Below are positions 25,230 to 56,600 of a stretch of 64,000 nt of DNA, in pieces. The translations under genes and the position numbers were made by a program. Under the pieces are notes generated by a model, which searched no databases, was not told the origin of the DNA, and worked only from the letters and a program-made list of their open reading frames with translations. Origin of the DNA: Auanema rhodensis (taxonomy: Eukaryota > Animalia > Nematoda); the NCBI GenBank assembly GCA_964057225.1, contig OZ059896.1:18538001-18602000 (forward strand), in the 5' to 3' direction. Each line of letters starts with the position of its first letter. Within the stretch, counting starts at the first letter, position 1.

Positions 25230-25301
25230 AGTTCAGGGGTGTACTGGTTAGCACTTAAAATTCTAAATGCTGCGACCAAAGTTTAATTCAAAGCGGAATT
25301 T
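25230..25301 (+). pseudogene. Highly decayed tRNA-Gln-like pseudogene (mirror of 18880-18951)
   Basis: Reverse complement of 18880-18951. Confidence 0.6.
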
Positions 25302-35755: not shown

Positions 35756-35828
35756 CGACCCTGGCAGGACTCGAACCTACAATCTTCGGATCCGAAGTCC
35801 GACGCCTTATCCATTAGGCCACAAGGCC
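35756..35828 (-). tRNA. tRNA-Arg(TCG), representative minus-strand copy
   Basis: 73-nt cloverleaf identical to 38621-38693. Confidence 0.95.
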
Positions 35829-37499
35829 ATGTAAATCGCATTCAAATTAGACAATTTGTATAACCCAACCCAGTAACTCATTAAAATGTAGTTGATTTTT
35901 TTTATCGATTCTAGGTCTGAAAAAATAATAATATGAAATAATACTTTTATTTTAGTACCTTATGAGAAAACCTTTGGGAAATTTTTGATACTTTCTCACT
36001 CTGAATAGGAACATTCTCGAGAATATTATCACAGCATTTGTTTTACTGCTAGTATTTTTTTCAATTGTATGAGATAATACAGAATTAAACATGTAAACTA
36101 TCAGGTAATGATTTTTTTAAAACAGAAAATAACGACCCTGGCAGGACTCGAACCTACAATCTTCGGATCCGAAGTCCGACGCCTTATCCATTAGGCCACA
36201 AGGCCATGTAAATCGCATTCTAATTAGACAATTTGTATAACCCAACCCAGTAACTCACTAAAATGTAGTTGATTTTTTTTATCGATTCTAGGTCTGAAAA
36301 AATAATAATATGAAATATTATTTTTATTTTAGTACCTTATGAGAAAACCTTCGGGAAATTTTTGATACTTTCTCACTCTGAATAGGAACATTTTCGAGAA
36401 TATTATCACTGCATTTGTTTTACTGCTAGTATTTTTTTCAATTGTATGAGATAATACAGAATAAAACATGTAAACTATCAGGTAATGATTTTTTTGAAAC
36501 AAAAAATAACGACCCTGGCAGGACTCGAACCTACAATCTTCGGATCCGAAGTCCGACGCCTTATCCATTAGGCCACAAGGCCATGTAAATCGCATTCAAA
36601 TTAGACAATTTGTATAACCCAACCCAGTAACTCATTAAAATGTAGTTGATTTTTTTTATCGATTCTAGGTCTGAAAAAATAATAATATGAAATAGTACTT
36701 TTATTTTAGTACCTTATGAGAAAACCTTCGGAAATTTTTTGATATTTTCTCACTCTGAATAGGAACATTCTCGAGAATATTATCACTGCATTTGTTTTAC
36801 TGCTAGTATTTTTTTCAATTGTATGAGATAATACAGAATAAAACATGTAAACTATCAGGTAATGATTTTTTTAAAACAGAAAATAACGACCCTGGCCGGA
36901 CTCGAACCTATACAAATTGTCTAATTTGAATGCGATTTAGATGGCCTTGTGGCCTAATGGATAAGGCGTCGGACTTCGGATCCAAAGATTGTAGGTTCGA
37001 GTCCTACCAGGGTCGTTACTTTTTGTTTTAAAAAAATCATTACCTGATAGTTTACATGTTTTATTCTGTATTATCTCATACAATTGAAAAAAATACTAGC
37101 AATAAAACAAATGCAGTGATAATATTCTCGAAAATGTTCCTATTCAGAGTGAGAAAATATCAAAAATTTCCCGAAGGTTTTTTCATAAGGTACTAAAATA
37201 AAAGTATTATTTCATATTATTATTTTTTCAGACCTAGAATCGATAAAAAAATCAACTACATTTTAGTGAGTTACTGGGTTGGGTTATACAAATTGTCTAA
37301 ATTGAATGCGATTTAGATGGCCTTGTGGCCTAATGAATAAGGCATTGGACTTCGGATCCGAAGATTGTAGGTTCGAGTCCTGCCAGGGTCGTTATTTTTT
37401 GTTTCAAAACAATCAATACCTGATAGTTTACATGTTTTATTCTGTATTATCTCATACAATTGAAAAAAATACTAGCAATAAAACAAATGCAGTGATAAT

Positions 37500-37607
37500 A
37501 TAAAACATGTAAACTATCAGGTAATGATTTTTTTGAAACAAAAAATAACGACCCTGGCAGGACACGAACCTACAATCTTCGGATCCGAAGTCCGACGCCT
37601 TATCCAT
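37500..37607 (-). repeat. Local ~108-bp inverted insert of tRNA 3' part + trailer (second copy 38339-38446)
   Basis: ATAAAACATGTAAACTATCAGG...CGACCCTGGCAGGACACGAACC...CCTTATCCAT replaces ~20 bp of spacer inside a plus-strand unit. Confidence 0.92.
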
Positions 37608-38620
37608 CAGAGTGAGAAAATATCAAAAATTTCCCGAAGGTTTTCTCATAAGGTACTAAAATAAAAGTATTATTTTATATTATTATTTTTTCAGACCTAG
37701 AATCGATAAAAAAATCAACTTCATTTTAGTGAGTTACTGGGTTGGGTTATACAAATTGTCTAATTTGAATGCGATTTAGATGGCCTTGTGGCCTAATGGA
37801 TAAGGCGTCGGACTTCGGATCCAAAGATTGTAGGTTCGAGTCCTACCAGGGTCGTTACTTTTTGTTTTAAAAAAATCATTACCTGATAGTTTACATGTTT
37901 TATTCTGTATTATCTCATACAATTGAAAAAAATACTAGCAATAAAACAAATGCAGTGATAATATTCTCGAAAATGTTCCTATTCAGAGTGAGAAAATATC
38001 AAAAATTTCCCGAAGGTTTTCTCATAAGGTACTAAAATAAAAGTATTATTTCATATTATTATTTTTTCAGACCTAGAATCGATAAAAAAATCAACTACAT
38101 TTTAGTGAGTTACTGGGTTGGGTTATACAAATTGTCTAATTTGAATGCGATTTAGATGGCCTTGTGGCCTAATGAATAAGGCATTGGACTTCGGATCCGA
38201 AGATTGTAGGTTCGAGTCCTGCCAGGGTCGTTATTTTTTGTTTCAAAACAATCAATACCTGATAGTTTACATGTTTTATTCTGTATTATCTCATACAATT
38301 GAAAAAAATACTAGCAATAAAACAAATGCAGTGATAATATAAAACATGTAAACTATCAGGTAATGATTTTTTTGAAACAAAAAATAACGACCCTGGCAGG
38401 ACACGAACCTACAATCTTCGGATCCGAAGTCCGACGCCTTATCCATCAGAGTGAGAAAATATCAAAAATTTCCCGAAGGTTTTCTCATAAGGTACTAAAA
38501 TAAAAGTATTATTTTATATTATTATTTTTTCAGACCTAGAATCGATAAAAAAATCAACTTCATTTTAGTGAGTTACTGGGTTGGGTTATACAAATTGTCT
38601 AATTTGAATGCGATTTACAT

Positions 38621-38693
38621 GGCCTTGTGGCCTAATGGATAAGGCGTCGGACTTCGGATCCGAAGATTGTAGGTTCGAGTCCTGCCAGGGTCG
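38621..38693 (+). tRNA. tRNA-Arg(TCG), representative copy
   Basis: GGCCTTG TG GCCT AATGGATA AGGC G TCGGA CT-TCG-GA TCCGA AGATT GTAGG TTCGAGT CCTGC CAGGGTC G: all four stems pair, A box TGGCCTAATGG, B box GTTCGAGTC, no intron, followed by a TTATTTTTT Pol III terminator. Confidence 0.97.
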
Positions 38694-39129
38694 TTATTTT
38701 TTGTTTCAAAAAAATCATTACCTGATAGTTTACATGTTTTATTCTGTATTATCTCATACAATTGAAAAAAATACTAGCAGTAAAACAAATGCAGTGATAT
38801 TTATCTCGAGAATGTTTCTATTCAGAGTGAGAAAATATCAAAAATTTTCCGAAGGTTTTCTCATAAGGTACTAAAATAAAAGTATTATTTCATATTATTA
38901 TTTTTTCAGACCTAGAATCGATAAAAAAATCAACTACATTTTAGTGAGTTACTGGGTTGGGTTATACAAATTGTCTAATTTGAATGCGATTTACATGGCC
39001 TTGTGGCCTAATGGATAAGGCGTCGGACTTCGGATCCGAAGATTGTAGGTTCGAGTCCTGCCAGGGTCGTTATTTTTTGTTTCAAAAAAATCATTACCTG
39101 ATAGTTTACATGTTTCATTCTGTATTATC

Positions 39130-39487
39130 CGTTCCGTTATGCTCCCGCGTCGATCTTACAGACCAATGGAGTCTACAAGATGAGCGTGGTAGTATTCCAG
39201 ATGTAGCGGTTAAACATGGAGCATAAGGATAAACATAAGACTCGAGAAAGATTGGTTTATTATATCTACGTGATTACAATAAGATACATATAACTAAGTA
39301 AAGGTTAAACTAATAGAGAACAGAGAGAGAACGACCAACCATCCATGATCGTCCCTGAGGCAAAGCTGAAGTGTTGTAATATGGAAAAGGGCGGGTCGTC
39401 TTCTCTCAGTCTCGCATTCTCTGACTCTAACCCGCCTGCTACAGCTTCGTCATATGAATGTAATGCATTGATCATTCGAATGGAACG
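39130..39487 (-). repeat. 3' LTR (358 bp)
   Basis: CGTTCCGTT...AATGGAACG; three substitutions found relative to 50258-50615. Minus-strand TATATA (39287-39292) and AATAAA (39256-39261). Confidence 0.97.
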
Positions 39488-39489
39488 TG

Positions 39490-39498
39490 CCCTTTTTC
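39490..39498 (-). promoter_or_regulatory. Putative polypurine tract
   Basis: Minus strand GAAAAAGGG-CA immediately precedes the 3' LTR; short. Confidence 0.55.
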
Positions 39499-40030
39499 GA
39501 GTTTATGTCGCGTCCTCGCGACAATCAAAAGTTTTGACTTGAACAACTGTAGCAGAAGGGTTAATGTGTGTATTAAAGTACATGAAAATATACTTATAAA
39601 ATAATAATAAAAAAGTTTTTAAGTATAACGCTCTAACAAGTGTAGACAAAAAGTTAACTATTTTTTTGCTAGAGCTCGGTTGTTTGTTTCAATTTGTGTG
39701 AGTTTAGAAAAAAAAAGAAAAGTTTTGCGTAATACCAAATAACTTCCAAATTGAGTCATTGATTACTCAAGTGAAGACTGTTGCTCAGATATTGTTGCAA
39801 ACTATGTCTTTCATTTTTCATCTCATCTAGTATGGGGAAGTTAGTTGAAATTAGGAAGGTTCGAACTATATGATAAAGAATTATCTTCTCACATTTCCCG
39901 TGTTCATTATGCTCTAGTTTACTTTTTGACTTAAGAGTGACTTGTTTTAGAGGACTCGTTACAAAATTTGTGTTCTAGTATTACTTTAAAGAAAGTTATT
40001 ACAAAACAATTTACAATAAAATCTCATGAG

Positions 40031-42667
40031 TTAATGGTTTTTTCTTGATGGTAGCCAATTTGTATCCGAAAGGTCTTCTGGTTCGTCATAAGAGTCTTCA
40101 TCGTTGTTGTTTCCGTTGATAACCTCTATGATTTCAATATCGCTGTCATCGTCTGAGCTGTCTGTACGTGTACTGGGCTTATGTGCGATTCCGTCATCTG
40201 TTTCTCGATTAAATAATTTGAGATTGTCCTTGTGAACGTCTTGGATCTTTCCGAAAAGGTTTTTGATTTGAACCATGTTTCCCTTCACATTAATAACTTC
40301 AAATGGTCCATCATAAGCTTTCCGAAGCTTTTGTCCTGGCTTGTGCATTTTCACAGCTAACATAACGCAGTCTCCTTCTTGTATATCTCTTTCGTGAGTG
40401 CGTAATCGAGCATCATGTTTCTTTTTTGCTAATTCTTGATGCTTTTCCAAATTTTCTTGAATGATTGTTTTCTGTTTGCTTCGGATTTTCTCAATATTTT
40501 CAATCTCCTTTGAAATTTCCTTTGGTTCAGTTGTTTCGGGGTATAAATCTTTATCCAATCTCAAACGGCTTTCTTTCCCGAATAGTACAACGTATGGTGA
40601 TATTCCTGTGGTTGCATGCGTTGTGGTGTCCAATGCAAAGGTAATTTTTGGCAAAAACATGTCCCAATCAGTGACATCTTCGTTGAGATAATGTGTGAGT
40701 TCTTCTTCTAACGTTCTATGAAGTCTTTCTACTTGTCCATTGGAATTCTTCTGATGTGGGAGTGTTGATTCATGTTTGATACCGAGTTTTTCGCACATGT
40801 CTTCAAATTTCCTTGATAGGAAGTTGGAACCGCGGTCTGTTATTAAGCGATTCGGTGGTCCATAGACATATACAAAGTTTCTGAGGAATCTATCAATGAC
40901 AACTTCACTAACAATTGTTGGTATGGCGATAGTTGTAGCCCATTTGGAGAAAGAGTCTTGTATTGTGAGGACATAGCTGTTGTTCCTTTTTGATGTTGGG
41001 AATGGTCCCATGATATCCATATGTATTCTCTCAAATGGTTTTGTTGGTATGTTAAATTGACCCATTGGTTGTACGGTCATAGCATGAGGATCTTTCTTTC
41101 GTTGTGCACATTTGATGCACTGTTTTACGTATTTTGCTATGTCGTTCTGCATGTTAGTCCAGGAAAATCTTCGTAATATGGCTTCTTTTGTTTTGTTGAT
41201 TCCTTGATGCGCCCCGATTGTTGGGTCTTCATGAAATTCTTCAATGATTTTGTTAATTATATCACTATCCGATGGCAATATTAACGCTGGATGAGGTCTT
41301 TTGACGCTTGGTTTTGTGTAGAGTAAGTTGTTTATAACACAATAACGATCATTTTGAATCATATTTTTCTTCGTTCTGTATTCAATCTCAGCTATTGTTC
41401 TCTTGATCCAAGGAGTATTTTGTTGGATTGAGCTGAATTCTGGTAACTTCACAACATTTACTTGTTGTGTCTCAATTTTCTCTTTCGAATTCGTCTTTTG
41501 TTTCTTGTTCGACGTCTTTGGATCGTTAGCTTCATCTCCAATGTATCTAGAGAGTGCGTCACAGACTTTGTTTAATCTGCCTTCTCGATATTTGATCTCA
41601 ATATCGTATTCCTGTATGACCAATTGGAACTTTGCTAGTCTTCCAAATAGGTCTCTTCTAGTTAGTAAGCTTGTCAATGAGCGATGATCGGTGATGCAAA
41701 TTGAATGTGATCCAAGTATGTATGTTCGAAACTGTGCTAGAGCGTAAACTAAGCCTAAGGCTTCTATCTCTATGGGAGCATAGTTACGTTCTGCTTTTAC
41801 TAATTTCCTACTTGCGAAAGCAATTGGATGTAAGTTCTTGAATGGTTCGTTTGGATCTTCGGGCTGCAGTAATACTGCGCCTATGGCGATGTTGCTGCCA
41901 TCACTTTCAATGATGAAAGTTCGGTCTGATCGTGGTGGTTTCAGTACCGGTGCTTCGATTAGTCGTTCCTTTAGCTTATCTAGTGAACGTTGACATTCGC
42001 TAGTCCAATTGAAGTCTGCGTCTAGCTTAGTAAGGTCATACAGCGGACTTGCTATATGTGCAAAATCTTTAATAAATTTTCTAAAGAATCCGACCATTCC
42101 TAAGAATGCTCTTACTCCTGTGGGTGTTTGAGGAGCAGGGTAATCGCGGATGGCGGAAACTTTCTGTTGATCGGGCTTAACTCCGTCTCTTCCGACAATG
42201 AGTCCGAGAAATTTCACTTCTGGTCTTGCAAATGAACATTTCTTGAGTTTAATCTTAAATCCTAGTCTTTCTACAGCGAGTAATACTTCTTTGATGTCTT
42301 TGAGGTGTTGTTCTGCGCTGTCTGATATGACTAGTAAATCGTCCAAATAGACAAATAGTCGGCATTTACATTTACTTTGGAGATATCTCACGGCTGTTTG
42401 AAAGGTATGTGGCGCACCACATAATCCCATAGGCATTCTCCTGTATTGATAAGTCCCACTATTGGTGGTAAAGAATGTGAGTGGTCTATCCTTCTTCGAT
42501 AATGGTATTTGGAAAAAGCCAGAAACAAGATCAAAATTAGAAAAGTATTGTGATCCAGCCGCTAAGTCAATGATATCAGAGATGTTAGGAATCACATATG
42601 TTTGTTTTCTTGTAACGTTATTTAAGGCTCGGAAATCCGTAACGAAACGGAATGTTTCGTCTTTTTT
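40031..42667 (-). CDS. Pol C-terminal part: reverse transcriptase, RNase H, integrase (third segment of the single frame)
   Basis: KKDETFRFVTDFRALN, FDLVSGFFQI, MPMGLCGAP, YLDD (42338-42349). RNase H IIESDGS..IGAVL, IEALGL, TDHRSL. Integrase zinc finger H..H..CIKC, HMDIMGP / ITDRGSNF / VERLHRTL (DDE), GPF motif, acidic tail. Confidence 0.96.
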   Translation of the reverse strand, partial: KKDETFRFVTDFRALNNVTRKQTYVIPNISDIIDLAAGSQYFSNFDLVSGFFQIPLSKKDRPLTFFTTNSGTYQYRRMPMGLCGAPHTFQTAVRYLQSKCKCRLFVYLDDLLVISDSAEQHLKDIKEVLLAVERLGFKIKLKKCSFARPEVKFLGLIVGRDGVKPDQQKVSAIRDYPAPQTPTGVRAFLGMVGFFRKFIKDFAHIASPLYDLTKLDADFNWTSECQRSLDKLKERLIEAPVLKPPRSDRTFIIESDGSNIAIGAVLLQPEDPNEPFKNLHPIAFASRKLVKAERNYAPIEIEALGLVYALAQFRTYILGSHSICITDHRSLTSLLTRRDLFGRLAKFQLVIQEYDIEIKYREGRLNKVCDALSRYIGDEANDPKTSNKKQKTNSKEKIETQQVNVVKLPEFSSIQQNTPWIKRTIAEIEYRTKKNMIQNDRYCVINNLLYTKPSVKRPHPALILPSDSDIINKIIEEFHEDPTIGAHQGINKTKEAILRRFSWTNMQNDIAKYVKQCIKCAQRKKDPHAMTVQPMGQFNIPTKPFERIHMDIMGPFPTSKRNNSYVLTIQDSFSKWATTIAIPTIVSEVVIDRFLRNFVYVYGPPNRLITDRGSNFLSRKFEDMCEKLGIKHESTLPHQKNSNGQVERLHRTLEEELTHYLNEDVTDWDMFLPKITFALDTTTHATTGISPYVVLFGKESRLRLDKDLYPETTEPKEISKEIENIEKIRSKQKTIIQENLEKHQELAKKKHDARLRTHERDIQEGDCVMLAVKMHKPGQKLRKAYDGPFEVINVKGNMVQIKNLFGKIQDVHKDNLKLFNRETDDGIAHKPSTRTDSSDDDSDIEIIEVINGNNNDEDSYDEPEDLSDTNWLPSRKNH

Positions 42668-45568
42668 CTAAACGAGAACGACAGGGCTGTTGAACAAAGA
42701 TGTCGATCGTTCTATTATCCCTTGCTCGAGCATTTCTTGGAATTGTCTTTCTACCTCTTCCTGTTTCCCGAGAGGTATACGTGAAATTCGTGGCTTTGGC
42801 ATATCCATATCCGTTCGTAGTGGTATCTTGTGTTCTACTGGTCCTTTGAACAATCCTATCTTTTTATCTTCATTGAGGAATGCCTTCTTACGTTGACGAA
42901 TGATGTTTCGTAGTTCGTCTTTTTGTCGTTGCGTGAGATCAGCCTCTTTTAGGTCAAGTTCTTTCATGAAATCACCAGGGAAGTGAGGTAATTTGCCTTC
43001 CCAGTCTGCTTCTGGTGGAATATAGTCGTACTGTTGTTCTGTTGAGAAGATTTCATAGTCCGGTATAGATCCTATTTCGGCTTCTGCAATTACAGTGCCG
43101 GCCGGTATTTCTATGAATTCTTTAGAATTGTTCCGGAATTGGATATTGATGGAGTTAACATCGCGAAATGCTGTGTCGTATCGAGGTGAGAGAGGTTTAT
43201 TGTCGTTTGGTTTAATCATAGCGATTAAGTCTTCTCCGATTGGGTTCTCTAATTGGACTTGGAAATTAAAAACTTGTCGTGGAAGTAGACTCCGCGGTTC
43301 CAAGGTTATCAAATTAACAGTTTTTGATATCCTGTTAATATCCCCGTTAATTCCGCTAGCCAAAGGTACTACATGATTTCCAATTTCCAGTGTTCTTTTG
43401 TATGGTCTTAGTTTCATGCCAATGTTTTGACAGTCAAGTGTTTTCATGAAATCTAATCCAATCAACGCTGGCGATGGACAGTCTTTGTCGTCTGATATGA
43501 AGAATGTATGGTCGATTTCGTAACCGGCTATTTCGACGGTTAAGTCGATAGTACCAATGAATACAAATTCTGATCCGTTCGCTGTTGTTGCTCTTAATGT
43601 ATTCTTCTTAACAAAGTCATTCAAAGCTAAGTAGTGTAGTGTCGATATTCTTATGTAACTGACGGACAAACCTGAGTCCCATAAAGTTAGGATCAGTCTA
43701 TCGTTAACAGTCATCCATAGAAGTGGTAGTGCTTGATCTTTCTTTTTGGAAATCGAGCAAACTAATGGTAGTGCAATTGGTATGAATGTGAGCATTGATG
43801 GATAGTATTGTTTCATTATGTGTCTTGGAATCGGTTGGTCCGGATGACTAACTAATTCCAAAGTTTCTTCGTATGTTGGTAGATCACTGTCGTGATCTTT
43901 GAGTGCAATATGCATAACTGGTATGCCTACTGGTTTGAAGAAATAGATCTTTACAATGAAACCTATCACAAAGAGTATGATGGTAAATAATGTAATTGCA
44001 CCGATCGTTATTAGTGTTCGCTCAATCGTTCCTGCAATTGTATCGATGAATGACTTCCATGTGCTCTTGGTGAATTCTTGAGCTTTCGATATGTAGTCGC
44101 TACTTTTCTTTAGTACACTGAATGTAGCTGATATCTTTGGATCATTGTGAATTGTGTGAAGAACGTGATTCTGACGAATCGATGCTAAACTCGCACCGTA
44201 AGCTATGGCTGTGGTCATTGAGTATACACGAGACGATAAATTAGTGTATAAGTGAGCTCCGGTGAATTTTAATGGTGTTATTTTTTCGTGATGAAGTCCG
44301 TCCCACATTGATACAAGACTGACGTCTGCAGTCCCATTAATTCCTTTCCATTCACCTTCGCTAGACCAGATATCTGTTGGTACGTGATCACAGCTTATTT
44401 CTTTACCATGAGGTAAAAGATCCTTGGATCCGGGTGCTGCAAACAGTAACTGTCCGTCTTGTGTCCAGACTGGGGTTTCGAGATAGCATGTGCCATTTAC
44501 GGTGTGATTGTGATAAATGGTTTTCTCTAGCACTGTAGGGCATACATGTATATGCAAAATTTCATTGCCTACAAACCGTGCGGCTATATCTTCTCTTCCC
44601 AGTATTGTTCGCATTGCGATTGTTGGTTCAATTTGTAGAATTGATTTCCATAATTCCAGATACCGATTTTGTATCTCGCAAATCGATTCGTATGATTCTT
44701 CAAAATGTTTCTGCAATTCCTCTTGGATCATTGTAGTAGCATACTGTAAATGATCTTGGGCTATTTTGTTCGATATATTTTGACGAAACTCTTGTACCGA
44801 GTCAATTTTCGTTGCTATGTATCTCGCATTTGCTTCCACTAAATTTGAGGTTTCTACTGATGGTGTTGAGGAAGATCGGTTTTTTCGAATCAATGTTGGA
44901 GAGGCTTCGGTTGTCTCTTGTATTTTTGGAATCTGTGCGTCTTTGTATATGGCATAGCTTCTTGTTGTTGTTGGCGAACGAGCGGTTGATGTTGTTGTGC
45001 GTGCTGTTGTCGCAGCGGTCGTGTGAGGCGCCGTTGTTGATGGCTGTTGCCTCCATGATGGTGCTCTTGTGGTGGTTGTTGCATTTGTGTGAGGATTGTT
45101 CGTTATATGCGGCTGTATTGTGGTAACTGATTGGATTGTTCCCTTCTGTTCGATCAAAGGTTGGACTGGTGTCACAACCGCGCCGCTAGCCGCGCCGCCT
45201 GCAGCGACGCTAGCCGCGCCGCCTGCCGCGACGCTGGATGTCCGCGTTGCGATTTGCCGAAAATTTGTTTCATTTTCCTCTGCCATTAAGATTTGAAGTT
45301 GTTCTTGTGTTATCCTACTTGATGTATAAGGTGTTTTTACATTATTGAGCAGGGGTAAAAATATTTCCAATAATAATTTCTTTGAAAGATTGCTGGGCTT
45401 GATCAGCTTAGGGTGTGGACCGATCGGTATTCCATAATTATTCTTCCTGTCATAAAATAGTTTATCTGTATTTGGCATGAATTGTCGTGATGCTGGCAAT
45501 TTTATAAATTTTCTGTCATCAATAAATGCTGCAGTTTTATTCCATCGTACTGTTGTGAGGGTTTTTAG
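42668..45568 (-). CDS. Env C-terminal half (mucin-like tract, gB/chuvirus-G-like core, TM) fused in frame to aspartic protease and RT N-terminus
   Basis: Thr-rich tract; HLQY...ICEIQ...LWKSILQIEPT..MRTILGREDIAARFVGNEILHIHVC...TCYLETPV matches the herpes gB domain III/IV pattern (QLQF..WC..Q..LW....INP....GR.V.AR.LGDV...C...CYSRP). TM LITIGAITLFTIILFVIGFIV (~43940-44014); protease LWDSG (43670-43684) and LIGLDFM; ends SPVVLV-TAG. Confidence 0.88.
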   Translation of the reverse strand, partial: LKTLTTVRWNKTAAFIDDRKFIKLPASRQFMPNTDKLFYDRKNNYGIPIGPHPKLIKPSNLSKKLLLEIFLPLLNNVKTPYTSSRITQEQLQILMAEENETNFRQIATRTSSVAAGGAASVAAGGAASGAVVTPVQPLIEQKGTIQSVTTIQPHITNNPHTNATTTTRAPSWRQQPSTTAPHTTAATTARTTTSTARSPTTTRSYAIYKDAQIPKIQETTEASPTLIRKNRSSSTPSVETSNLVEANARYIATKIDSVQEFRQNISNKIAQDHLQYATTMIQEELQKHFEESYESICEIQNRYLELWKSILQIEPTIAMRTILGREDIAARFVGNEILHIHVCPTVLEKTIYHNHTVNGTCYLETPVWTQDGQLLFAAPGSKDLLPHGKEISCDHVPTDIWSSEGEWKGINGTADVSLVSMWDGLHHEKITPLKFTGAHLYTNLSSRVYSMTTAIAYGASLASIRQNHVLHTIHNDPKISATFSVLKKSSDYISKAQEFTKSTWKSFIDTIAGTIERTLITIGAITLFTIILFVIGFIVKIYFFKPVGIPVMHIALKDHDSDLPTYEETLELVSHPDQPIPRHIMKQYYPSMLTFIPIALPLVCSISKKKDQALPLLWMTVNDRLILTLWDSGLSVSYIRISTLHYLALNDFVKKNTLRATTANGSEFVFIGTIDLTVEIAGYEIDHTFFISDDKDCPSPALIGLDFMKTLDCQNIGMKLRPYKRTLEIGNHVVPLASGINGDINRISKTVNLITLEPRSLLPRQVFNFQVQLENPIGEDLIAMIKPNDNKPLSPRYDTAFRDVNSINIQFRNNSKEFIEIPAGTVIAEAEIGSIPDYEIFSTEQQYDYIPPEADWEGKLPHFPGDFMKELDLKEADLTQRQKDELRNIIRQRKKAFLNEDKKIGLFKGPVEHKIPLRTDMDMPKPRISRIPLGKQEEVERQFQEMLEQGIIERSTSLFNSPVVLV

Positions 45569-48500
45569 TTATCTTAGTAAATTGATCGTTGCCTTAATGA
45601 ATTCGCTTTTCTTCTCTTCCTCGTCAGTTAGTATACGTTTCCTTATTGGTGGCATTTGTATGAACGTTTGTAGGACTTCTTGTCGTGATGGAACTGTCAG
45701 TCCTTCTTCAATTATAACTGGTGTATTGGTTAAATTGAGAGCTATGCTTTCAATTCGTTCGCGATATGAACCTTCTTTCTTCCTTATGATTTCATCGAAT
45801 TCGATTACTGTCAAACGATCTGATATTTGTTCGAGAAGCTGTTCAGATGTTAAGTATGATATTGCTGCCTTTGTAGTAATGGCTAATTCTCTTTGTGCTA
45901 TATAATATAGCAGAGCTTCTTCTTTATCACTGAAATCGTATTGTTTGAGAAAATGTCGAACAGAATGTTCATTTATTTGAATTCTGAAGAAAAATTCGAA
46001 TTTTTCTTTATGTGATGTTATCCATGCCTTTAGAGAGTATGTTGGATCTACTAAACGTCTTCCTTTGATTATAGGAATAATTGAAGTAATACCGGGATTA
46101 CTCATTAATGGTCTTAGGAAAGAATATGGACAGACGTGAAGCAATACTGTTTCATAATCTTCAACTTCGTTGATCCGATCTTGATCCAGTGGGAAAGAAC
46201 ATCCTTCGGTGACTGCACGTTTTGGTCTTTTAAACGGCAGCTTTTTGAACTCTCTTTCAATAAGGGTGGTTATATTGTTGTCGTTTGGAAATTTAGAAAG
46301 AATGATATAATTTCCTGATGTCGTATGGAACGCTAGCTGCCTGAAGCAAGAAGAAATAGGTTTCGGAGTTGGTTTGCTCGAAAGAATAAGTGCCGATTGT
46401 GTACTAGGGATTAAAATAGTATCTTGACTAATGATAGCGTCATATGTATGCATATCGATGTAATTACAACGTGAAGCAGTGGTTTGTGGGTCCCATATTA
46501 TTATTGATGTACTTGATTCACAATTACCATGATGTGCATTGCATCCTTCCGTGTTTAATATTAAGTTTGACAATATTGTATCGTCAGGCATACGGGTCAT
46601 GACTCCGCGCTCTAATATTAGACGTGACCGCTCCTCGCACGCGTCGCGGTTGAACGCGCGCGCTGGGTCATAGGAGGGCTCCGGAGTTGCTTGGGTGATA
46701 CTATCAATGCGTTGCAGTTCCATGTTATTCCACTTGCGATCGCGGATCGCCTGTCTGCATTCGCGCTCTCCTATAGGCTGTATTCTATTTATTGTTCTGT
46801 TCGTATCGCGGAGGAATAGCAGGTCTCGTACGCATAACTTGTGTACTTCCTCTGAACAACGCCACGCATCCCATTCGTGTGCTGTGTGATTTCTTGTGTA
46901 CAGATGACCTTCTGTACGTAGCACATGGTTTTTCTCTGTTAATCTGCATTTTCTGATTGTTGGTGGCATAAGTAATGCGCCTCCTGTTGCTCTTGTACAG
47001 ATTTGATATGTAGATGCACAGTGCAAGAATATTGCTGCTGTTATTGCCATGATAACTGTGAGCGTCAAAGGCGAAAGGGTGACAGAGTTTATTCTTGTTG
47101 AGCTTCTATCTCTTCCTCTTGAGTTGTCTCTTGGATTTTTGAATTGAACTCTTCTTTGTCCGTTGTTGTTATTGAATCTACCTCGTTGGTTGTTATGACG
47201 AAAATTATAATTTCTTTGATGCCAATCAGAACTCGATTGCCTATTATCTTGTTCGTTATAATTTGTACGGCGATTATTATTAGCGAAAGAACCGTAACGG
47301 TTTCGATTATTATTGAAATTAGAAAAGTTTTTATTTTTTTGATAATTTTGATTATTTTGATAATTTTGATTATTTCTTATCATTTGGTTATCGCGTTGAT
47401 AATTGCGATTAAATGTTTGGCTATCTCGTCTCTCATCATTACGCGCAAAGGGTGCTAGTGCTTTGTTCACAGCGTTGACCAACATCGATTGCGTGTCTGT
47501 TGTTTGGTTCACTATCGATTCCTCCCAGCGAGCTGCTTCAATCGCTTCTGTGAAGGATTTTGGCTTTGCTCGGATCACAGCTGGTTTTAGAGAATTTTTA
47601 AGTCCTCTGAGGAATGTTGATCTCAGTATTTGATCTTTATGTGGGTCATCAGATGCAAATGCACTCAATGCCATTGTTCTTAATGCTTGGGCGTATGCAT
47701 CAATTGTCAATTCCCCTTGCGTGGTGTTTTGAAGGTTAATAAGTGCAGGGTCTTGGTTATATTCAGGGCAGAGCTTCGATGTTAGTGCTCTAATCAGATC
47801 ATTCCACGAACCAGTTGTTTTAAGTTGTTCAGGAACTTGTCTGTAAGCTTCTTCTGCTGCTTCATTTTTGAGAAGCAAAGGAAGAAGTGCTAACCTTTCA
47901 GGGATAATAAGGCCAATGGCATTAGCAAACAAGTTGAATTTACCCGTAAAATCACGGAAGTTACGACTGCCGTCGTAAGTTGGACAGTAAGGCGAAAGTA
48001 AGGCTTGCGCGATTGTTGTTTTCCCTGCCCCAGGTAGTGAGGAAACAGCTTCCGTCATGATGTTATTCGTACGGGTAGATGGTATTTTGATCGTTCTACC
48101 TGTTATTGGTGGGGTCTCCAAAATAGGGGTTGTTTGCGTGGATGGAATAGGTCTATTGGGTGCCTTAGGAAGTGAGTCTGTTGTTGTTAAGATGGGAGTA
48201 GAAGTTTGATGAATACTGGTATTTGGTGCAGGTGGTTGAATTGGTGAGATATTAATGTTAGGGACTGATGAATATCTGCTTTTGCGCTTGGTGTTGAAAG
48301 TTTTATCTTTAGGCGAAAGGTTAAAAAGATCAGTAACAATGTTTCTAAGAGAACTAAGCCCACCCGCGCTAGAAGTTTTTGAAAATAAAGGGGAATCGGT
48401 TGGTTCGGTTAGTGAGAGAGAGAGAGAAGCGTCGCTGATGTTTTGATTTTTCTTATTTTTATTAGAATTAGAGGAGCGTACCTTTTTAGGAGTGATCGGT

Positions 48501-48751
48501 GTTTGTTCCTCCACAATGATTGATAGTTCTTCTTCTATAGTAGGTACGTAGTCCGGGTCGCCTAGTTGTTCAGTAGGTGAGACAGAATCAGTAGTAGGAA
48601 TAAGGAAATTATCCGGCTTCTTGTCGACTTTCTGCTCCTCTTCTAATATAGCGACGTCTTGAGCTCGAGCTCGACTTCTGGTAAAGGGAGCTGAGTCTTG
48701 GGAATCGAAATGCGTACTTATAGGTACGGCTGAATGGAATCTCTTAGCCAC
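45569..48751 (-). CDS. Gag (capsid + N/Q/R-rich region) fused via internal signal peptide to Env N-terminal half
   Basis: Ty3-type capsid motifs YDGS..F..F, WNDLIRAL, QGELTIDAY, FLRGL, FTEAIEAA. No CCHC knuckle. Hydrophobic VTLSPLTLTVIMAITAAIFLHCAST (47009-47083), then a Cys-rich ectodomain with N-x-S/T sequons and furin site KRPKR (46217-46231). The track start is GTG; the first ATG is at 48058. Confidence 0.87.
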   Translation of the reverse strand: MAKRFHSAVPISTHFDSQDSAPFTRSRARAQDVAILEEEQKVDKKPDNFLIPTTDSVSPTEQLGDPDYVPTIEEELSIIVEEQTPITPKKVRSSNSNKNKKNQNISDASLSLSLTEPTDSPLFSKTSSAGGLSSLRNIVTDLFNLSPKDKTFNTKRKSRYSSVPNINISPIQPPAPNTSIHQTSTPILTTTDSLPKAPNRPIPSTQTTPILETPPITGRTIKIPSTRTNNIMTEAVSSLPGAGKTTIAQALLSPYCPTYDGSRNFRDFTGKFNLFANAIGLIIPERLALLPLLLKNEAAEEAYRQVPEQLKTTGSWNDLIRALTSKLCPEYNQDPALINLQNTTQGELTIDAYAQALRTMALSAFASDDPHKDQILRSTFLRGLKNSLKPAVIRAKPKSFTEAIEAARWEESIVNQTTDTQSMLVNAVNKALAPFARNDERRDSQTFNRNYQRDNQMIRNNQNYQNNQNYQKNKNFSNFNNNRNRYGSFANNNRRTNYNEQDNRQSSSDWHQRNYNFRHNNQRGRFNNNNGQRRVQFKNPRDNSRGRDRSSTRINSVTLSPLTLTVIMAITAAIFLHCASTYQICTRATGGALLMPPTIRKCRLTEKNHVLRTEGHLYTRNHTAHEWDAWRCSEEVHKLCVRDLLFLRDTNRTINRIQPIGERECRQAIRDRKWNNMELQRIDSITQATPEPSYDPARAFNRDACEERSRLILERGVMTRMPDDTILSNLILNTEGCNAHHGNCESSTSIIIWDPQTTASRCNYIDMHTYDAIISQDTILIPSTQSALILSSKPTPKPISSCFRQLAFHTTSGNYIILSKFPNDNNITTLIEREFKKLPFKRPKRAVTEGCSFPLDQDRINEVEDYETVLLHVCPYSFLRPLMSNPGITSIIPIIKGRRLVDPTYSLKAWITSHKEKFEFFFRIQINEHSVRHFLKQYDFSDKEEALLYYIAQRELAITTKAAISYLTSEQLLEQISDRLTVIEFDEIIRKKEGSYRERIESIALNLTNTPVIIEEGLTVPSRQEVLQTFIQMPPIRKRILTDEEEKKSEFIKATINLLR

Positions 48752-50244
48752 CTTGCTAGAACTCTTGGTTTGAAAAAACCTTGAGTGCTTGGTAACGTGT
48801 GGGATGTTGAGACGTTAAAGAATGCGGTGAATAAGGATGAGGATGTAGGCAAAATGAGAAAGGCTTTGGAGAGCGACCGGTGTCGTATCGACAACTTGTG
48901 AGAATGAGGTCGATGCCTTGGCCAATGGCGATGGATCCGCCTTCTACTGTGTGATATCGGGACTCTGGTGCTCTCCGTATTTTCTCTGTAGTTGACAATC
49001 TGATTCACAAAACATCTGGGGTGACCAAGCTGTTATTTTACAAAACGTTTAGTGTAATTCGTAATATTCGTTCAATTACAGCACATTTTACTGATTTGTA
49101 TGCAACCATTTTCCTCATGCTAACTAAACTTATGTTTTGTTACACTAGTTTCTCGACCATGTGGTGTGTCATCTTGCAACAAAACTTATGGTGTAATTCG
49201 TAACATGCTTTTGATAAAAGAGCAGTTTAACAATAAATGTGCACCAATTTCTCTTTTGTGACCAAAAATAATTTTTGTTTCTTTACAATCTGGTTTTCAA
49301 ATACATTTGGTGTAGCTCGCATGTTTCGTTGTAACAAAAGTCATGGGATTCGTAATATTAGTTTTACAAAAGAGCGTTTCGCAATGATGAATGTAGGTAT
49401 TTCGTGATCAGAAATCGAATTTTTAAATAAAAGCAGAGTTAAATGGCTAAATATTACAAGAACTAGTATTAAAGTTGGAATAAGGTTCAATGCGTGAGTC
49501 TTATGCTTCTGAACAACAATAACGGTATGAGGAAGGTGACATTCAGTAAGGGGAGAAAATCCAAACCGATATGCTTTAGCCAACACGACCTGTGTTAATC
49601 ATGATTCAAATTCGAGATAACATTTTTCAACAGGATTTTTCGGACTATAGCGATCTATGAATTAACAATCCTCCCTTTTTGGTGAGGTTTCCCGTGTAAT
49701 TTTTTTCATGCGTACTGATTATAAATTTAGGATGTTAGAAGCAAAATTTGTCTGAACGAAATCGTAACGCAAAATAAAATAGTCCTGATCGCAAAACAAA
49801 CTTCATCCACGAAATATAAAGATATAACCGAAGTTATTCTTTCCTTGAAGCCAAAATTAATCCTTAAAAAGGAGAAGGCGTGGGAAATACAAATTAACAA
49901 TTACTTTAGGTGAATTTGTTCACTAATTCAGCCTAAAGCCCTCATCAAGCTTCAAGGTTGGGTAACAGAGCATTTCAGATGTTATAAGCAAGGATACGAA
50001 ATTTAAAGGTTCAGACGAATGAATTTTTGTGAACAAACGGGAAAATAATAATCTCGAAACGTATAATCCTTCTTTAAAAAAAAAGGATTCCTTGCCTCTG
50101 TTCCCATTTAACGTTGTTGGCCCCTCCGTATTGTGTTAAGACATAGAGTAGATGGTATGAGAAAAAGAGAGATGAAAGAAATTTGAAGATGAATTAACAA
50201 CACAAACATTAAAGAGAAGGAAAAAAAAATTGTGATAAGTTCGA

Positions 50245-50257
50245 GGTGGAACCTCCA
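50245..50257 (-). promoter_or_regulatory. Primer binding site for tRNA-Gln
   Basis: Minus strand TGGAGGTTCCACC directly abuts the 5' LTR. It is complementary to GGTGGAACCT-CCA, the 3' end of metazoan tRNA-Gln (13 nt). Confidence 0.9.
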
Positions 50258-50615
50258 CGTTCCGTTATGCTCCCGCGTCGATCTTACAGACCAATGGAGT
50301 CTACAAGATGAGCGTGGTAGTATTCCAGATGTAGCGGTTAAACATGGAGCATGAGGATAAACATAAGACTCGAGAAAGATTGGTTTATTATATCTACGTG
50401 ATTACAAAAAGATACATATAACTAAGTAAAGGTTAAACTAATAGAGAACAGAGAGAGAACGACCAACCATCCATGATCGTCCCTGAGGCAAAGCTGAAGT
50501 GTTGTAATATGGAAAAGGGCGGGTCGTCTTCTCTCAGTCTCGCATTCTCTGACTCTAACCCACCTGCTACAGCTTCGTCATATGAATGTAATGCATTGAT
50601 CATTCGAATGGAACG
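50258..50615 (-). repeat. 5' LTR (358 bp)
   Basis: Direct repeat of 39130-39487, adjacent to the PBS. Confidence 0.97.
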
Positions 50616-53600
50616 ATACTAGCAGTAAAACAAATGCAGTGATAATATTCTCGAAAATGTTCCTATTCAGAGTGAGAAAGTATCAAAAATTTCCCGAAGG
50701 TTTTCTCATAAGGTACTAAAATAAAATTATTATTTCATATTATTATTTTTTCAGACCTAGAATCGATAAAAAATATCAACTACATTTTAGTGAGTTACTG
50801 GGTTGGGTTATACAAATTGTCTAATTAGAATGCGATTTACATGGCCTTGTGGCCTAATGGATAAGGCGTCGGACTTCGGATCCGAAGATTGTAGGTTCGA
50901 GTCCTGCCAGGGTCGTTATTTTTTGTTTCAAAACAATCAATACCTGATAGTTTACATGTTTTATTCTGTATTATCTCATACAATTGAAAAAAATACTAGC
51001 AATAAAACAAATGCAGTGATAATATTCTCGAAAATGTTCCTATACAGAGTGAGAAAATATCTACAATTTCCCGAAGGTTTTCTCATAAGGTACTAAAATA
51101 AAAGTATTATTTCATATTATTATTTTTTCAGACCTAGAATCGATAAAAAAAATCAACTACATTTTAGTGAGTTACTGGGTTGGGTTATACAAATTGTCTA
51201 ATTTGAATGCGATTTAGATGGCCTTGTGGCCTAATGGATAAGGCGTCGGACTTCGGATCCGAAGATTGTAGGTTCGAGTCCTACCAGGGTCGTTATTTTT
51301 TGTTTTAAAAAAATCATTACCTGATAGTTTACATGTTTTATTCTATATTATCTCATACAATTGAAAAAAATACTAGCAGTAAAACAAATGCAGTGATATT
51401 ATTCTCGAGAATGTTCCTATTCAGAGTGAGAAAATATCAAAAATTTTCCGAAGGTTTTCTCATAAGGTACTAAAATAAAAGTATTATTTCATATTATTAT
51501 TTTTTCAGACCTAGAATCGATAAAAATATCAACTACATTTTAGTGAGTTACTGGGTTGGGTTATACAAATTGTCTAATTTGAATGCGATTTACATGGCCT
51601 TGTGGCCTAATGGATAAGGCGTCGGATTTCGGATCCGAAGATTGTAGGTTCGAGTCCTGCCAGGGTTGTTATTTTTTGTTTCAAAACAATCATTACCTGA
51701 TAGTTTACATGTTTTATTCTGTATTATCTCATACAATTGAAAAAAATACTAGCAGTAAAACAAATGCAGTGATAATATTCTCGAAAATGTTCCTATTCAG
51801 AGTGAGAAAGTATCAAAAATTTCCCGAAAGTTTTCTCATAAGGTACTAAAATAAAAGTATTATTTCATATTATTATTTTTTCAGACCTAGAATCGATAAA
51901 AAAAATCAACTACATTTTAGTGAGTTACTGGGTTGGGTTATACAAATTGTCTAATTTGAATGCGATTTAGATGGCCTTGTGGCCTAATGGATAAGGCGTC
52001 GGACTTCGGATCCGAAGATTGTAGGTTCGAGTCCTACCAGGGTCGTTATTTTTTGTTTTAAAAAAATCATTACCTGATAGTTAACATGTTTTATTCTGTA
52101 TTATCTCATACAATTGAAAAAAATACTAGCAGTAAAACAAATGCAGTGATATTATTCTCGAGAATGTTCCTATTCAGAGTGAGAAAATATCAAAAATTTT
52201 CCGAAGGTTTTCTCATAAGGTACTAAAATAAAAGTATTATTTCATATTATTATTTTTTCAGACCTAGAATCGATAAAAATATCAACTACATTTTAGTGAG
52301 TTACTGGGTTGGGTTATACAAATTGTCTAATTTGAATGCGATTTACATGGCCTTGTGGCCTAATGGATAAGGCGTCGGATTTCGGATCCGAAGATTGTAG
52401 GTTCGAGTCCTGCCAGGGTTGTTATTTTTTGTTTCAAAACAATCATTACCTGATAGTTTACATGTTTTATTCTGTATTATCTCATACAATTGAAAAAAAT
52501 ACTAGCAGTAAAACAAATGCAGTGATAATATTCTCGAAAATGTTCCTATTCAGAGTGAGAAAGTATCAAAAATTTCCCGAAAGTTTTCTCATAAGGTACT
52601 AAAATAAAAATATTATTTCATATTATTATTTTTTCAGACCTAGAATCGATAAAAAATATCAACTACATTTTAGTGAGTTACTGGGTTGGGTTATACAAAT
52701 TGTCTAATTTGAATGCGATTTAGATGGCCTTGTGGCCTAATGGATAAGGCGTCGGACTTCGGATCCGAAGATTGTAGGTTCGAGTCCTACCAGGGTCGTT
52801 ATTTTTTGTTTTAAAAAAATCATTACCTGATAGTTAACATGTTTTATTCTGTATTATCTCATACAATTGAAAAAAATACTAGCAGTAAAACAAATGCAGT
52901 GATATTATTCTCGAGAATGTTCCTATTCAGAGTGAGAAAATATCAAAAATTTTCCGAAGGTTTTCTCATAAGGTACTAAAATAAAAGTATTATTTCATAT
53001 TATTATTTTTTCAGACCTAGAATCGATAAAAATATCAACTACATTTTAGTGAGTTACTGGGTTGGGTTATACAAATTGTCTAATTTGAATGCGATTTACA
53101 TGGCCTTGTGGCCTAATGGATAAGGCGTCGGATTTCGGATCCGAAGATTGTAGGTTCGAGTCCTGCCAGGGTTGTTATTTTTTGTTTCAAAACAATCATT
53201 ACCTGATAGTTTACATGTTTTATTCTGTATTATCTCATACAATTGAAAAAAATACTAGCAGTAAAACAAATGCAGTGATCATATTCTCGAAAATGTTCCT
53301 ATTCAGAGTGAGAAAGTATCAAAAATTTCCCGAAAGTTTTCTCATAAGGTACTAAAATAAAAATATTATTTCATATTATTATTTTTTCAGACCTAGAATC
53401 GATAAAAAATATCAACTACATTTTAGTGAGTTACTGGGTTGGGTTATACAAATTGTCTAATTTGAATGCGATTTAGATGGCCTTGTGGCCTAATGGATAA
53501 GGCGTCGGACTTCGGATCCGAAGATTGTAGGTTCGAGTCCTACCAGGGTCGTTATTTTTTGTTTTAAAAAAATCATTACCTGATAGTTAACATGTTTTAT

Positions 53601-56600
53601 TCTGTATTATCTCATACAATTGAAAAAAATACTAGCAGTAAAACAAATGCAGTGATATTATTCTCGAGAATGTTCCTATTCAGAGTGAGAAAATATCAAA
53701 AATTTTCCGAAGGTTTTCTCATAAGGTACTAAAATAAAAGTATTATTTCATATTATTATTTTTTCAGACCTAGAATCGATAAAAAATATCAACTACATTT
53801 TAGTGAGTTACTGGGTTGGGTTATACAAATTGTCTAATTTGAATGCGATTTAGATGGCCTTGTGGCCTAATGGATAAGGCGTCGGATTTCGGATCCGAAG
53901 ATTGTAGGTTCGAGTCCTGCCAGGGTCGTTATTTTTTGTTTCAAAAAAATCATTACCTGATAGTTAACATGTTTTATTCTGTATTATCTCATACAATTGA
54001 AAAAAATACTAGCAGTAAAACAAATGCAGTGATAATATTCTCGAAAATGTTCCTATTCAGAGTGAGAAAGTATCAAAAATTTCCCGAAAGTTTTCTCATA
54101 AGGTACTAAAATAAAAATATTATTTCATATTATTATTTTTTCAGACCTAGAATCGATAAAAAATATCAACTACATTTTAGTGAGTTACTGGGTTGGGTTA
54201 TACAAATTGTCTAATTTGAATGCGATTTAGATGGCCTTGTGGCCTAATGGATAAGGCGTCGGACTTCGGATCCGAAGATTGTAGGTTCGAGTCCTACCAG
54301 GGTCGTTATTTTTTGTTTTAAAAAAATCATTACCTGATAGTTAACATGTTTTATTCTGTATTATCTCATACAATTGAAAAAAATACTAGCAGTAAAACAA
54401 ATGCAGTGATATTATTCTCGAGAATGTTCCTATTCAGAGTGAGAAAATATCAAAAATTTTCCGAAGGTTTTCTCATAAGGTACTAAAATAAAAGTATTAT
54501 TTCATATTATTATTTTTTCAGACCTAGAATCGATAAAAATATCAACTACATTTTAGTGAGTTACTGGGTTGGGTTATACAAATTGTCTAATTTGAATGCG
54601 ATTTACATGGCCTTGTGGCCTAATGGATAAGGCGTCGGATTTCGGATCCGAAGATTGTAGGTTCGAGTCCTGCCAGGGTTGTTATTTTTTGTTTCAAAAC
54701 AATCATTACCTGATAGTTAACATGTTTTATTCTGTATTATCTCATACAATTGAAAAAAATACTAGCAGTAAAACAAATGCAGTGATATTATTCTCGAGAA
54801 TGTTCCTATTCAGAGTGAGAAAATATCAAAAATTTTCCGAAGGTTTTCTCATAAGGTACTAAAATAAAAGTATTATTTCATATTATTATTTTTTCAGACC
54901 TAGAATCGATAAAAAATATCAACTACATTTTAGTGAGTTACTGGGTTGGGTTATACAAATTGTCTAATTTGAATGCGATTTAGATGGCCTTGTGGCCTAA
55001 TGGATAAGGCGTCGGATTTCGGATCCGAAGATTGTAGGTTCGAGTCCTGCCAGGGTCGTTATTTTTTGTTTCAAAAAAATCATTACCTGATAGTTTACAT
55101 GTTTTATTCTGTATTATCTCATACAATTGAAAAAAATACTAGCAGTAAAACAAATGCAGTGATAATATTCTCGAAAATGTTCCTATTCAGAGTGAGAAAG
55201 TATCAAAAATTTCCCGAAAGTTTTCTCATAAGGTACTAAAATAAAAATATTATTTCATATTATTATTTTTTCAGACCTAGAATCGATAAAAAATATCAAC
55301 TACATTTTAGTGAGTTACTGGGTTGGGTTATACAAATTGTCTAATTTGAATGCGATTTAGATGGCCTTGTGGCCTAATGGATAAGGCGTCGGACTTCGGA
55401 TCCGAAGATTGTAGGTTCGAGTCCTGCCAGGGTCGTTATTTTTTGTTTCAAAAAAATCATTACCTGATAGTTTACATGTTTTATTCTGTATTATCTCATA
55501 CAATTGAAAAAAATACTAGCAGTAAAATAAATGCAGTGATAATATTCTCGAAAATGTTCCTATTCAGAGTGAGAAAGTATCAAAAATTTCCCGAAAGTTT
55601 TCTCATAAGGTACTAAAATAAAAGTATTATTTCATATTATTATTTTTTCAGACCTAGAATCGATAAAAAAATCAACTACATTTTAGTGAGTTACTGGGTT
55701 GGGTTATATAAATTGTCTAATTTGAATTCGATTTAGATGGCCTTGTGGCCTAATGGATAAGGCGTAGGATTTCGGATCCGAAGATTGTAGGTTCGAGTCC
55801 TGCCAGGGTCGTTATTTTTTGTTTCAAAAAAAATCATTACCTGATAGTTTACATGTTTTATTCTGTATTATCTCATACAATTGAAAAAAATACTAGCAGT
55901 AAAACAAATGCAGTGATAATATTCTCGAAAATGTTCCTATTCAGAGTGAGAAAGTATCAAAAATTTCCCGAAAGTTTTCTCATAAGGTACTAAAATAAAA
56001 GTATTATTTCATATTATTATTTTTTCAGACCTAGAATCGATAAAAAAATCAACTACATTTTAGTGAGTTACTGGGTTGGGTTATACAAATTGTCTAATTT
56101 GAATGCGATTTAGATGGCCTTGTGGCCTAATGGATAAGGCGTCGGACTTCGGATCCGAAGATTGTAGGTTCGAGTCCTACCAGGGTCGTTATTTTTTGTT
56201 TTAAAAAAATCATTACCTGATAGTTAACATGTTTTATTCTGTATTATCTCATACAATTGAAAAAAATACTAGCAGTAAAACAAATGCAGTGATATTATTC
56301 TCGAGAATGTTCCTATTCAGAGTGAGAAAATATCAAAAATTTTCCGAAGGTTTTCTCATAAGGTACTAAAATAAAAGTATTATTTCATATTATTATTTTT
56401 TCAGACCTAGAATCGATAAAAAAATCAACTACATTTTAGTGAGTTACTGGGTTGGGTTATACAAATTGTCTAATTTGAATGCGATTTACATGGCCTTGTG
56501 GCCTAATGGATAAGGCGTCGGACTTCGGATCCGAAGATTGTAGGTTCGAGTCCTGCCAGGGTCGTTATTTTTTGTTTCAAAAAAATCATTACCTGATAGT

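What the first reader, a model, noticed from the sequence alone, without database searches (positions are those of the whole stretch)
39110..50640. No target-site duplication; ~17 bp of the tRNA unit missing at an insertion just downstream of a tRNA gene
Seen: the intact unit reads TATTATC|TCATACAATTGAAAAAA|ATACTAGC. The element sits between TATTATC (39129) and ATACTAGC (50616), so ~17 bp are lost and nothing is duplicated. The left junction is 60 bp past the tRNA 3' end (39069), the right corresponds to ~77 bp, and the element is antisense to the tRNA. Inference: the simplest route is recombination between two independent insertions at nearly the same offset in different units, which would imply Pol III-gene-directed integration (Ty3 and Dictyostelium TRE elements are precedents). 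Aberrant integration is the alternative.
Basis: partly seen in the sequence, partly recalled or inferred. Interest (0 to 1): 0.7.

Follow-up and report, generated by a model that had tools for sequence, protein, structure and literature searches.

The report
Nematode retroelement scar in tRNA array
A broken, envelope-carrying jumping gene of a known roundworm type sits in a run of repeated tRNA genes with 17 bases missing where a short duplication is usual; this is most likely damage from one faulty insertion, and a preference for tRNA genes is only hinted at, by one other copy.

Summary
Observation confirmed. An 11,486-bp LTR element (39130-50615, minus strand) replaces 17 bp of a 377-bp tRNA-Arg repeat unit, with no target-site duplication; 66 other copies of that segment are intact. 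It is a rhabditid-nematode gag-env(gB)-pol Ty3/gypsy element with a tRNA-Gln primer site, two in-frame stops and unusual CG...CG ends.

The units on either side are best-match natural neighbours (18 of 50 true neighbours reach this, 127 of 3371 random pairs). Both LTRs share a base that differs from the contigs of three public runs. The 60-bp offset says little, because 72% of array positions lie in or within 100 bp of a tRNA gene.

Best reading: one insertion whose junction lost target DNA during integration or repair (about 0.6). New lead: of three other flanks seen in public contigs, one (two runs, one study) lies 5 nt upstream of a tRNA 5' end, read by eye. tRNA-gene preference therefore stays open (about 0.25-0.3), but not at the offset proposed. 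The family's normal duplication length could not be read.

The parts
39130..50615 (-). Full-length gag-env(gB)-pol Ty3/gypsy LTR retroelement, 11,486 bp, only copy in the window
50258..50615 (-). 5' LTR, 358 bp, ends CG...CG with an 8-of-9 terminal inverted repeat; carries all 3 LTR-LTR differences as private changes
39130..39487 (-). 3' LTR, 358 bp, ends CG...CG
50245..50257 (-). Primer-binding site abutting the 5' LTR with no gap; last 12 nt identical to the tRNA-Gln end listed for Caenorhabditis gag-env-pol elements
   Evidence: PMC13524379 supplementary file 1 rows
39488..39498 (-). Polypurine tract, separated from the 3' LTR by 2 nt
45569..48814 (-). Open stretch 1: gag (PF03732, PF19259) and the likely first part of env; ends at an in-frame stop (45569-45571)
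42668..45568 (-). Open stretch 2: gB-like fusion glycoprotein (PF24664, PF00606) and aspartic protease; ends at an in-frame stop (42668-42670) at the start of RT
40031..42667 (-). Open stretch 3: RT, RNase H, H2C2 zinc finger, rve integrase, GPF motif
38997..39069 (+). tRNA-Arg(TCG) gene 60 bp before the left junction
38771..39129 (+). Left flanking array unit, 17 bp short; nearest relatives are the units at 56266, 58894, 60024, 63413
50616..50992 (+). Right flanking array unit; nearest relatives include the units at 59270 and 60400, which directly follow 58894 and 60024
27193..64000 (.). Tandem array of 377-bp units with one tRNA-Arg(TCG) gene each (63 genes called; 22 minus, 41 plus); mean unit divergence 3.1%

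Best explanation
One copy of a nematode gag-env-pol LTR retroelement sits in one unit of a tRNA-Arg tandem array, and the 17 missing bases were most likely lost at one junction during or soon after that single integration. Shown: element anatomy, exact CG...CG ends, the 17-bp loss, and the in-register flanking units. Inferred: the integrase joined both cDNA ends to one place in the array, and either the two strand transfers were not concerted or the gapped intermediate was repaired by error-prone end joining. That would remove the short duplication plus adjoining target. If the family makes a 3-bp duplication, the scar reads as a 20-bp deletion over a 2-bp AT microhomology, but the duplication length is unknown. 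The copy then decayed in place (3 LTR differences, 2 stops). The array is likely a large, tolerant target; precise Pol III-directed placement at +60 to +77 is not needed to explain the site.
For: (1) Unit succession: the nearest relatives of the left unit are followed directly by nearest relatives of the right unit. 18 of 50 true neighbour pairs reach this best score against 127 of 3371 non-adjacent pairs; holding the left unit fixed 2 of 57, holding the right unit fixed 8 of 57 (with all 63 units gave 17 of 52 and 115 of 3370). (2) Both LTRs share one base (39476/50604) that differs from every contig laid there in X1, X2 and X9, as expected if one reverse-transcription event made both. (3) Decay is self-consistent: 3/358 LTR differences predict 1.6 stops in 2673 codons, and 2 are seen. 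(4) Both element ends are exact. (5) Small deletions do occur in this array, one 8-bp loss with a 4-bp microhomology. (6) The offset needs no targeting.
Against: The succession statistic was chosen after seeing the data and the flanking units still differ from their best matches at 4 and 6 sites, so the likelihood ratio is only about 3-10. Two daughters of one master copy would also share the rare LTR base. All 3 LTR differences fall on one LTR, which is not significant but would also fit two origins. No other copy could be read at both ends, so the normal duplication is unknown. One other flank is next to a tRNA gene, which raises the prior of repeated insertion into tRNA arrays.
Confidence: 0.6

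Rival explanations
1. One reading: two independent, same-orientation insertions at about +60 and +77 of different units recombined, giving a chimeric element; this would imply tRNA-gene-directed integration.
For: Recombination between copies is a standard cause of missing duplications (recalled). Two same-orientation hits within 17 bp have only a 4.6% chance without targeting, so if true it would imply targeting. One other flank is tRNA-adjacent. At least two subtypes of the family exist in the runs (tables 3 and 8).
Against: Flanking units are in natural succession. Both LTRs share a rare base. No contig showed an insertion at +60 or +78 with an intact other side (tables cut, rare variants dropped). 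The tRNA-adjacent flank is 5 nt upstream of a gene, not 60-77 bp downstream.
Confidence: 0.15
2. This CG...CG family normally integrates without a duplication, or with loss of target, because its integrase handles the two ends differently from TG...CA elements.
For: The ends are non-canonical. The PBS abuts one end and 2 nt separate the PPT from the other. The in-register flanks fit this as well as they fit the best explanation.
Against: The integrase is an ordinary rve DDE enzyme with H2C2 and GPF motifs. The only described CG...CG group, Troyka, makes 3-bp duplications. No second copy was read at both ends.
Confidence: 0.17
3. Assembly mis-join of collapsed copies, or a consensus error at the junction.
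For: Repeat inside a repeat; neither junction was seen in contigs of the runs laid.
Against: No frameshift across 8.8 kb of reading frame; 21 of 59 units have an identical partner; private LTR changes and the natural unit succession are preserved. Public contigs drop rare variants.
Confidence: 0.04
4. The element entered a unit that had already lost this segment, and its duplication later eroded.
For: An ATAC direct repeat brackets most of the lost segment.
Against: No such shortened unit among 66 intact copies or in the contigs laid. The 15-bp loss this would give still leaves 2 bp missing and no duplication.
Confidence: 0.04

Closest known systems
Nematode GAG-ENV-POL Ty3/gypsy elements with HSV/gB-type envelope (PMC13524379, passages and supplementary file 1 rows; Sacco et al. 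2022, seen only as cited there, not held)
   Same: gag-env-pol order, gB-like env, one long frame, tRNA-Gln primer site abutting the LTR, LTR of about 170-425 bp in the Gln-primed rows; RT-RNase H 56-66% identical to Auanema, Caenorhabditis and Diploscapter elements, in a 99-supported clade.
   Different: This copy has two in-frame stops and no duplication. Termini, duplications and insertion sites are not discussed in the PMC13524379 main text, so CG...CG ends and tRNA association are not reported there; Sacco 2022 may report them.
Troyka LTR retrotransposons (Kojima 2025, PMC12440569, parts 1-3 of 5 read)
   Same: 5'-CG...CG-3' LTR termini; LTR length within 100-400 bp; single frame.
   Different: Troyka ends are CGCCA...TGGCG with 3-bp duplications, no envelope, no GPF/Y motif, a CX2CX8-10HX4C knuckle and aquatic hosts. 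Here the ends are CGTTC...GGAACG, env and GPF are present and no knuckle was found.
Pol III-gene-targeting retrotransposons: Ty3, Tca8, Tyl3/Tyl6, DGLT-A, Skipper-2, TRE3/TRE5 (review PMC5911963, passages)
   Same: Ty3/gypsy type; two of four known junctions of this family lie next to tRNA genes, one of them 5 nt upstream, like the upstream-targeting group.
   Different: The examples in the table rows seen are from yeasts and dictyostelids, and the review has no occurrence of nematode, animal or metazoa. No fixed distance is seen here (+60 antisense versus -5 sense). TRE3 is non-LTR and sense to the tRNA.

Membership tests
Nematode GAG-ENV-POL Ty3/gypsy elements | gag-env-protease-RT-RNase H-integrase order between direct LTRs | tested here: met
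Nematode GAG-ENV-POL Ty3/gypsy elements | gB-type (class III) envelope | tested here: met
   PF24664 E 4.8e-13 (above cut-off), PF00606 E 5.2e-9 (below cut-off)
Nematode GAG-ENV-POL Ty3/gypsy elements | RT clusters with rhabditid gB-carrying elements | tested here: met
   11-row clade, SH-aLRT 99, quick tree of 52 rows chosen from 118 usable hits
Nematode GAG-ENV-POL Ty3/gypsy elements | tRNA-Gln primer site next to the 5' LTR (Caenorhabditis members) | tested here: met
Troyka | CG...CG termini | tested here: met
Troyka | CGCCA...TGGCG terminal pentamers | tested here: not met
Troyka | 3-bp target-site duplication | tested here: inconclusive
   none at this copy; no other copy read at both ends
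Troyka | No envelope and no GPF/Y motif | tested here: not met
   env hits; GPF at residue 787 of stretch 3
Troyka | CX2CX8-10HX4C zinc knuckle in Gag | tested here: not met
   no match in stretch 1
Troyka | RT branch outside Gypsy | not tested
   no Troyka sequence was in the tree
Pol III-targeted LTR elements (Ty3, DGLT-A, Skipper-2) | Most copies at a fixed short distance from tRNA genes | tested here: inconclusive
   2 of 4 distinct junctions are tRNA-associated, at different positions; 2 unassigned
Pol III-targeted LTR elements (Ty3, DGLT-A, Skipper-2) | Integrase or RNase H tethered to TFIIIB, TFIIIC or Pol III | not testable with these tools
   needs biochemistry
TRE3-type elements | Non-LTR element, sense to the tRNA, 40-150 bp downstream | tested here: not met
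   LTR element, antisense
DIRS/Ngaro tyrosine-recombinase elements (no duplication; that trait recalled) | Tyrosine recombinase instead of DDE integrase | tested here: not met
   rve integrase, no recombinase hit

The most novel reading that the evidence does not exclude
An envelope-carrying nematode Ty3/gypsy family with Troyka-like CG...CG ends homes to tRNA genes: one copy sits 5 nt upstream of a tRNA gene, Ty3-style, and another inside a tRNA-Arg array. It would be an animal LTR element or endogenous virus targeting Pol III genes, so far described in the papers I could read only for yeasts and social amoebae, and it may cut its target in a non-standard way.
Probability: 0.25. Interest if true: 0.75.

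Novelty: new member of a known kind. Interest (0 to 1): 0.38.

Why it matters
As it stands the scar is a one-off junction defect of a dead copy of a known element type. Two side results matter more. First, CG...CG ends have been offered as a hallmark of Troyka (PMC12440569); here they occur on an env- and GPF-bearing Ty3/gypsy element, and such ends would likely be missed by LTR finders that require TG...CA. Second, if the tRNA-adjacent flank reflects real preference, Pol III-gene targeting by LTR elements would extend to animals and could be tested by counting junctions in one long-read genome.

Tried and rejected
The window's own genome is not held, so the family could not be mapped against tRNA genes.

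Laying public contigs: 6 of 11 listed runs were laid. Neither window junction was seen; this is no evidence either way. No flank at the element's 5' end was shown, so no duplication could be read for another copy; 7 and 5 loose-end rows and 372 and 357 pieces were not shown.

Relatives with flanks: 35 viral-collection and 80 metagenome loci (80 kept of 145) were at most 42% identical; none of the 115 hit the envelope or showed a tRNA-Gln primer site next to an LTR pair. The primer-LTR junction pattern had 0 matches in viral contigs. Rfam found nothing in 1-27500. No external B-box-like motif was found in the unit spacer.

Inferring the duplication length from the five LTR-adjacent flanks (AT next to the end in 3 of 5) was considered and dropped as too few. 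The strand-flip junction overlaps were partly unreadable because of substitutions, so only the BLAST overlaps are cited.

Literature: Sacco et al. 2022 is not held. Searches listed no paper on termini, duplications or tRNA targeting of these nematode elements (listings only); PMC5408684 had no relevant passage. Supplements of the Auanema preprint could not be seen and may bear on how often such elements sit in tRNA arrays. Earlier scan notes held nothing on this genome or sequence.
Full report
What is there. The window holds a tandem array of 377-bp units, each with one tRNA-Arg(TCG) gene; 63 genes are called from 27543 to 63712. An 11,486-bp insertion occupies 39130-50615. It has 358-bp direct LTRs that differ at 3 sites and is the only copy in the window. 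The left flank stops 60 bp after the tRNA end at 39069 and the right flank resumes at +78, so 17 bp are gone and nothing is duplicated; the segment is intact 66 times elsewhere.

What the element is. One reading frame runs on the minus strand from 48814 to 40031, interrupted by two in-frame stops. Pfam gives gag, a gB-like fusion glycoprotein, protease, RT, RNase H and an H2C2/rve integrase in that order. The closest named proteins are from Auanema (58%), Caenorhabditis (43-49%) and Diploscapter (44%) and carry the same envelope domains. In a quick tree of 52 RT-RNase H rows, picked from 118 usable hits, the element falls in an 11-row clade of these proteins with support 99. PMC13524379 (passages) describes GAG-ENV-POL elements with gB-type envelope in nematodes. 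Its table lists a tRNA-Gln primer site abutting the LTR in Caenorhabditis members, and the 12-mer of two rows matches this element exactly. So the host is most likely a rhabditid nematode and the element a member of that clade. Three LTR differences predict 1.6 stops by neutral decay; two are seen.

Unusual ends. The LTRs begin and end with CG, not TG...CA. Contigs that match from the primer site through the first 16 nt of the LTR and then diverge suggest sister families share this end. CG...CG ends with 3-bp duplications are described for Troyka. This element fails the other Troyka features: it has an envelope and a GPF motif, lacks the knuckle, and has different terminal pentamers. My searches listed no report of such ends in nematode elements, but the main paper on them (Sacco 2022) was not available.

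One insertion or two? The array units differ by 3.1% on average and follow partly repeating orders. The unit left of the element is closest to units 56266, 58894, 60024 and 63413; the unit right of it is closest to 35303, 55136, 59270 and 60400. 58894 is followed by 59270 and 60024 by 60400. This best-possible fit is reached by 18 of 50 true neighbour pairs, 127 of 3371 non-adjacent pairs, 2 of 57 with the left unit fixed and 8 of 57 with the right unit fixed (four divergent units left out; with all 63 gave 17 of 52 and 115 of 3370). The statistic is post hoc; I take a likelihood ratio of about 3-10 for a single site. Both LTRs also share one base that differs from every contig laid at that place in three runs, which is what one reverse-transcription event gives, although sister insertions could share it. 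Against: all three LTR differences are private to the 5' LTR. Only two other independent deletions were seen in the array, one with a 4-bp microhomology, so the loss is tied to the junction. I conclude that target DNA was probably lost during integration or its repair. With a 3-bp duplication the scar would be a 20-bp deletion over a 2-bp microhomology, a pattern I recall for polymerase-theta end joining in nematodes; the duplication length is not known.

Is it tRNA targeting? The offset alone cannot show it: 11% of array positions are 50-90 bp downstream of a tRNA gene and 72% are in or within 100 bp of one. Such arrays can be large: a preprint on Auanema rhodense (passages) reports 19,554 tRNA genes, with tRNA arrays among the germline-restricted repeats. 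I cite this as context, not as the source of the window.

Other junctions. Eleven public runs from three studies hold the element; six were laid. Three other flanks appeared at the element's 3' end. The one in X1 and X10 (one study) reads, by eye, as the 5' half of a tRNA gene in register: 7-nt acceptor strand, T8, G10, A14, G18-G19, A21 and 3 of 4 D-stem pairs. The LTR end lies 5 nt upstream of it and in the same sense (table 7, rows at 39130). In X10 only 43 bp of LTR were matched, so a sister family cannot be excluded there. The flank in X3 and X4 is AT-rich and the one in X9 is unassigned. So 2 of 4 distinct junctions are tRNA-associated, but at unlike positions, and contig extension does not sample flanks at random. 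Known targeting elements have fixed windows: DGLT-A 13-33 bp upstream, Tca8 6-30 bp upstream, Skipper-2 8-23 bp downstream, TRE3 40-150 bp downstream and sense (PMC5911963 passages). The upstream flank fits such a window; the window's own insertion fits none well.

What could not be settled. No genome is held. Collection scans gave only distant elements without envelope. Neither window junction was seen in the contigs laid, which is no evidence either way. The family's normal duplication length and its genome-wide placement remain open.

Verdict. Real feature. Single faulty insertion 0.6; family trait 0.17; two-insertion recombinant 0.15; artefact 0.04; prior deletion 0.04. New member of a known kind. 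Interest 0.38, carried by the CG...CG ends and the tRNA-adjacent second junction rather than by the 17-bp scar.

Noticed in passing
window 36810-38770: The tRNA array flips strand at about 36909; two further short inverted pieces (37500-37610, 38339-38449) lie in an 839-bp duplication with 2 differences. BLAST overlaps at flips are 2 and 4 bp. This rearranged zone ends under 700 bp from the element.
   Followed up: partly
window 30866-31213, 32723-33069, 33448-33794: Three copies of one decayed unit (about 83% identical to the others, net 29 bp shorter through the tRNA) that ARAGORN does not call; amplified as part of a higher-order repeat.
   Followed up: partly
window 56642-57010: Array unit with an 8-bp deletion flanked by a 4-bp microhomology, upstream of the tRNA gene.
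   Followed up: yes
window 17940-26241: A 3.9-kb inverted duplication (17940-21830 against 22296-26241, 97.6%) with internal 80% repeats, between the 477-bp satellite and the tRNA array; no ORF of 150 aa and no Rfam hit.
   Followed up: no
window 203-17553: Satellite of 451-477-bp units with higher-order structure and no tRNA or Rfam match; it turns to the opposite strand at about 17552-18130.
   Followed up: no
window 50239-50273 and LTR interior: High-depth contigs share the primer site and first 16 nt of the LTR end, or short inner LTR pieces, then diverge: probably abundant sister families with the same CG end.
   Followed up: no
window 39486-39489 and 50256-50259: Both LTR ends are followed on the inner side by the same two bases (start of the primer site; gap before the purine tract), making an 8-bp inverted repeat. 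This would fit symmetric 2-nt end processing; untested.
   Followed up: no
L054:4638-15445: An unrelated TG...CA gypsy element in a metagenome contig has identical 317-bp LTRs, a 5-bp duplication and an adjoining 250-bp repeat.
   Followed up: no
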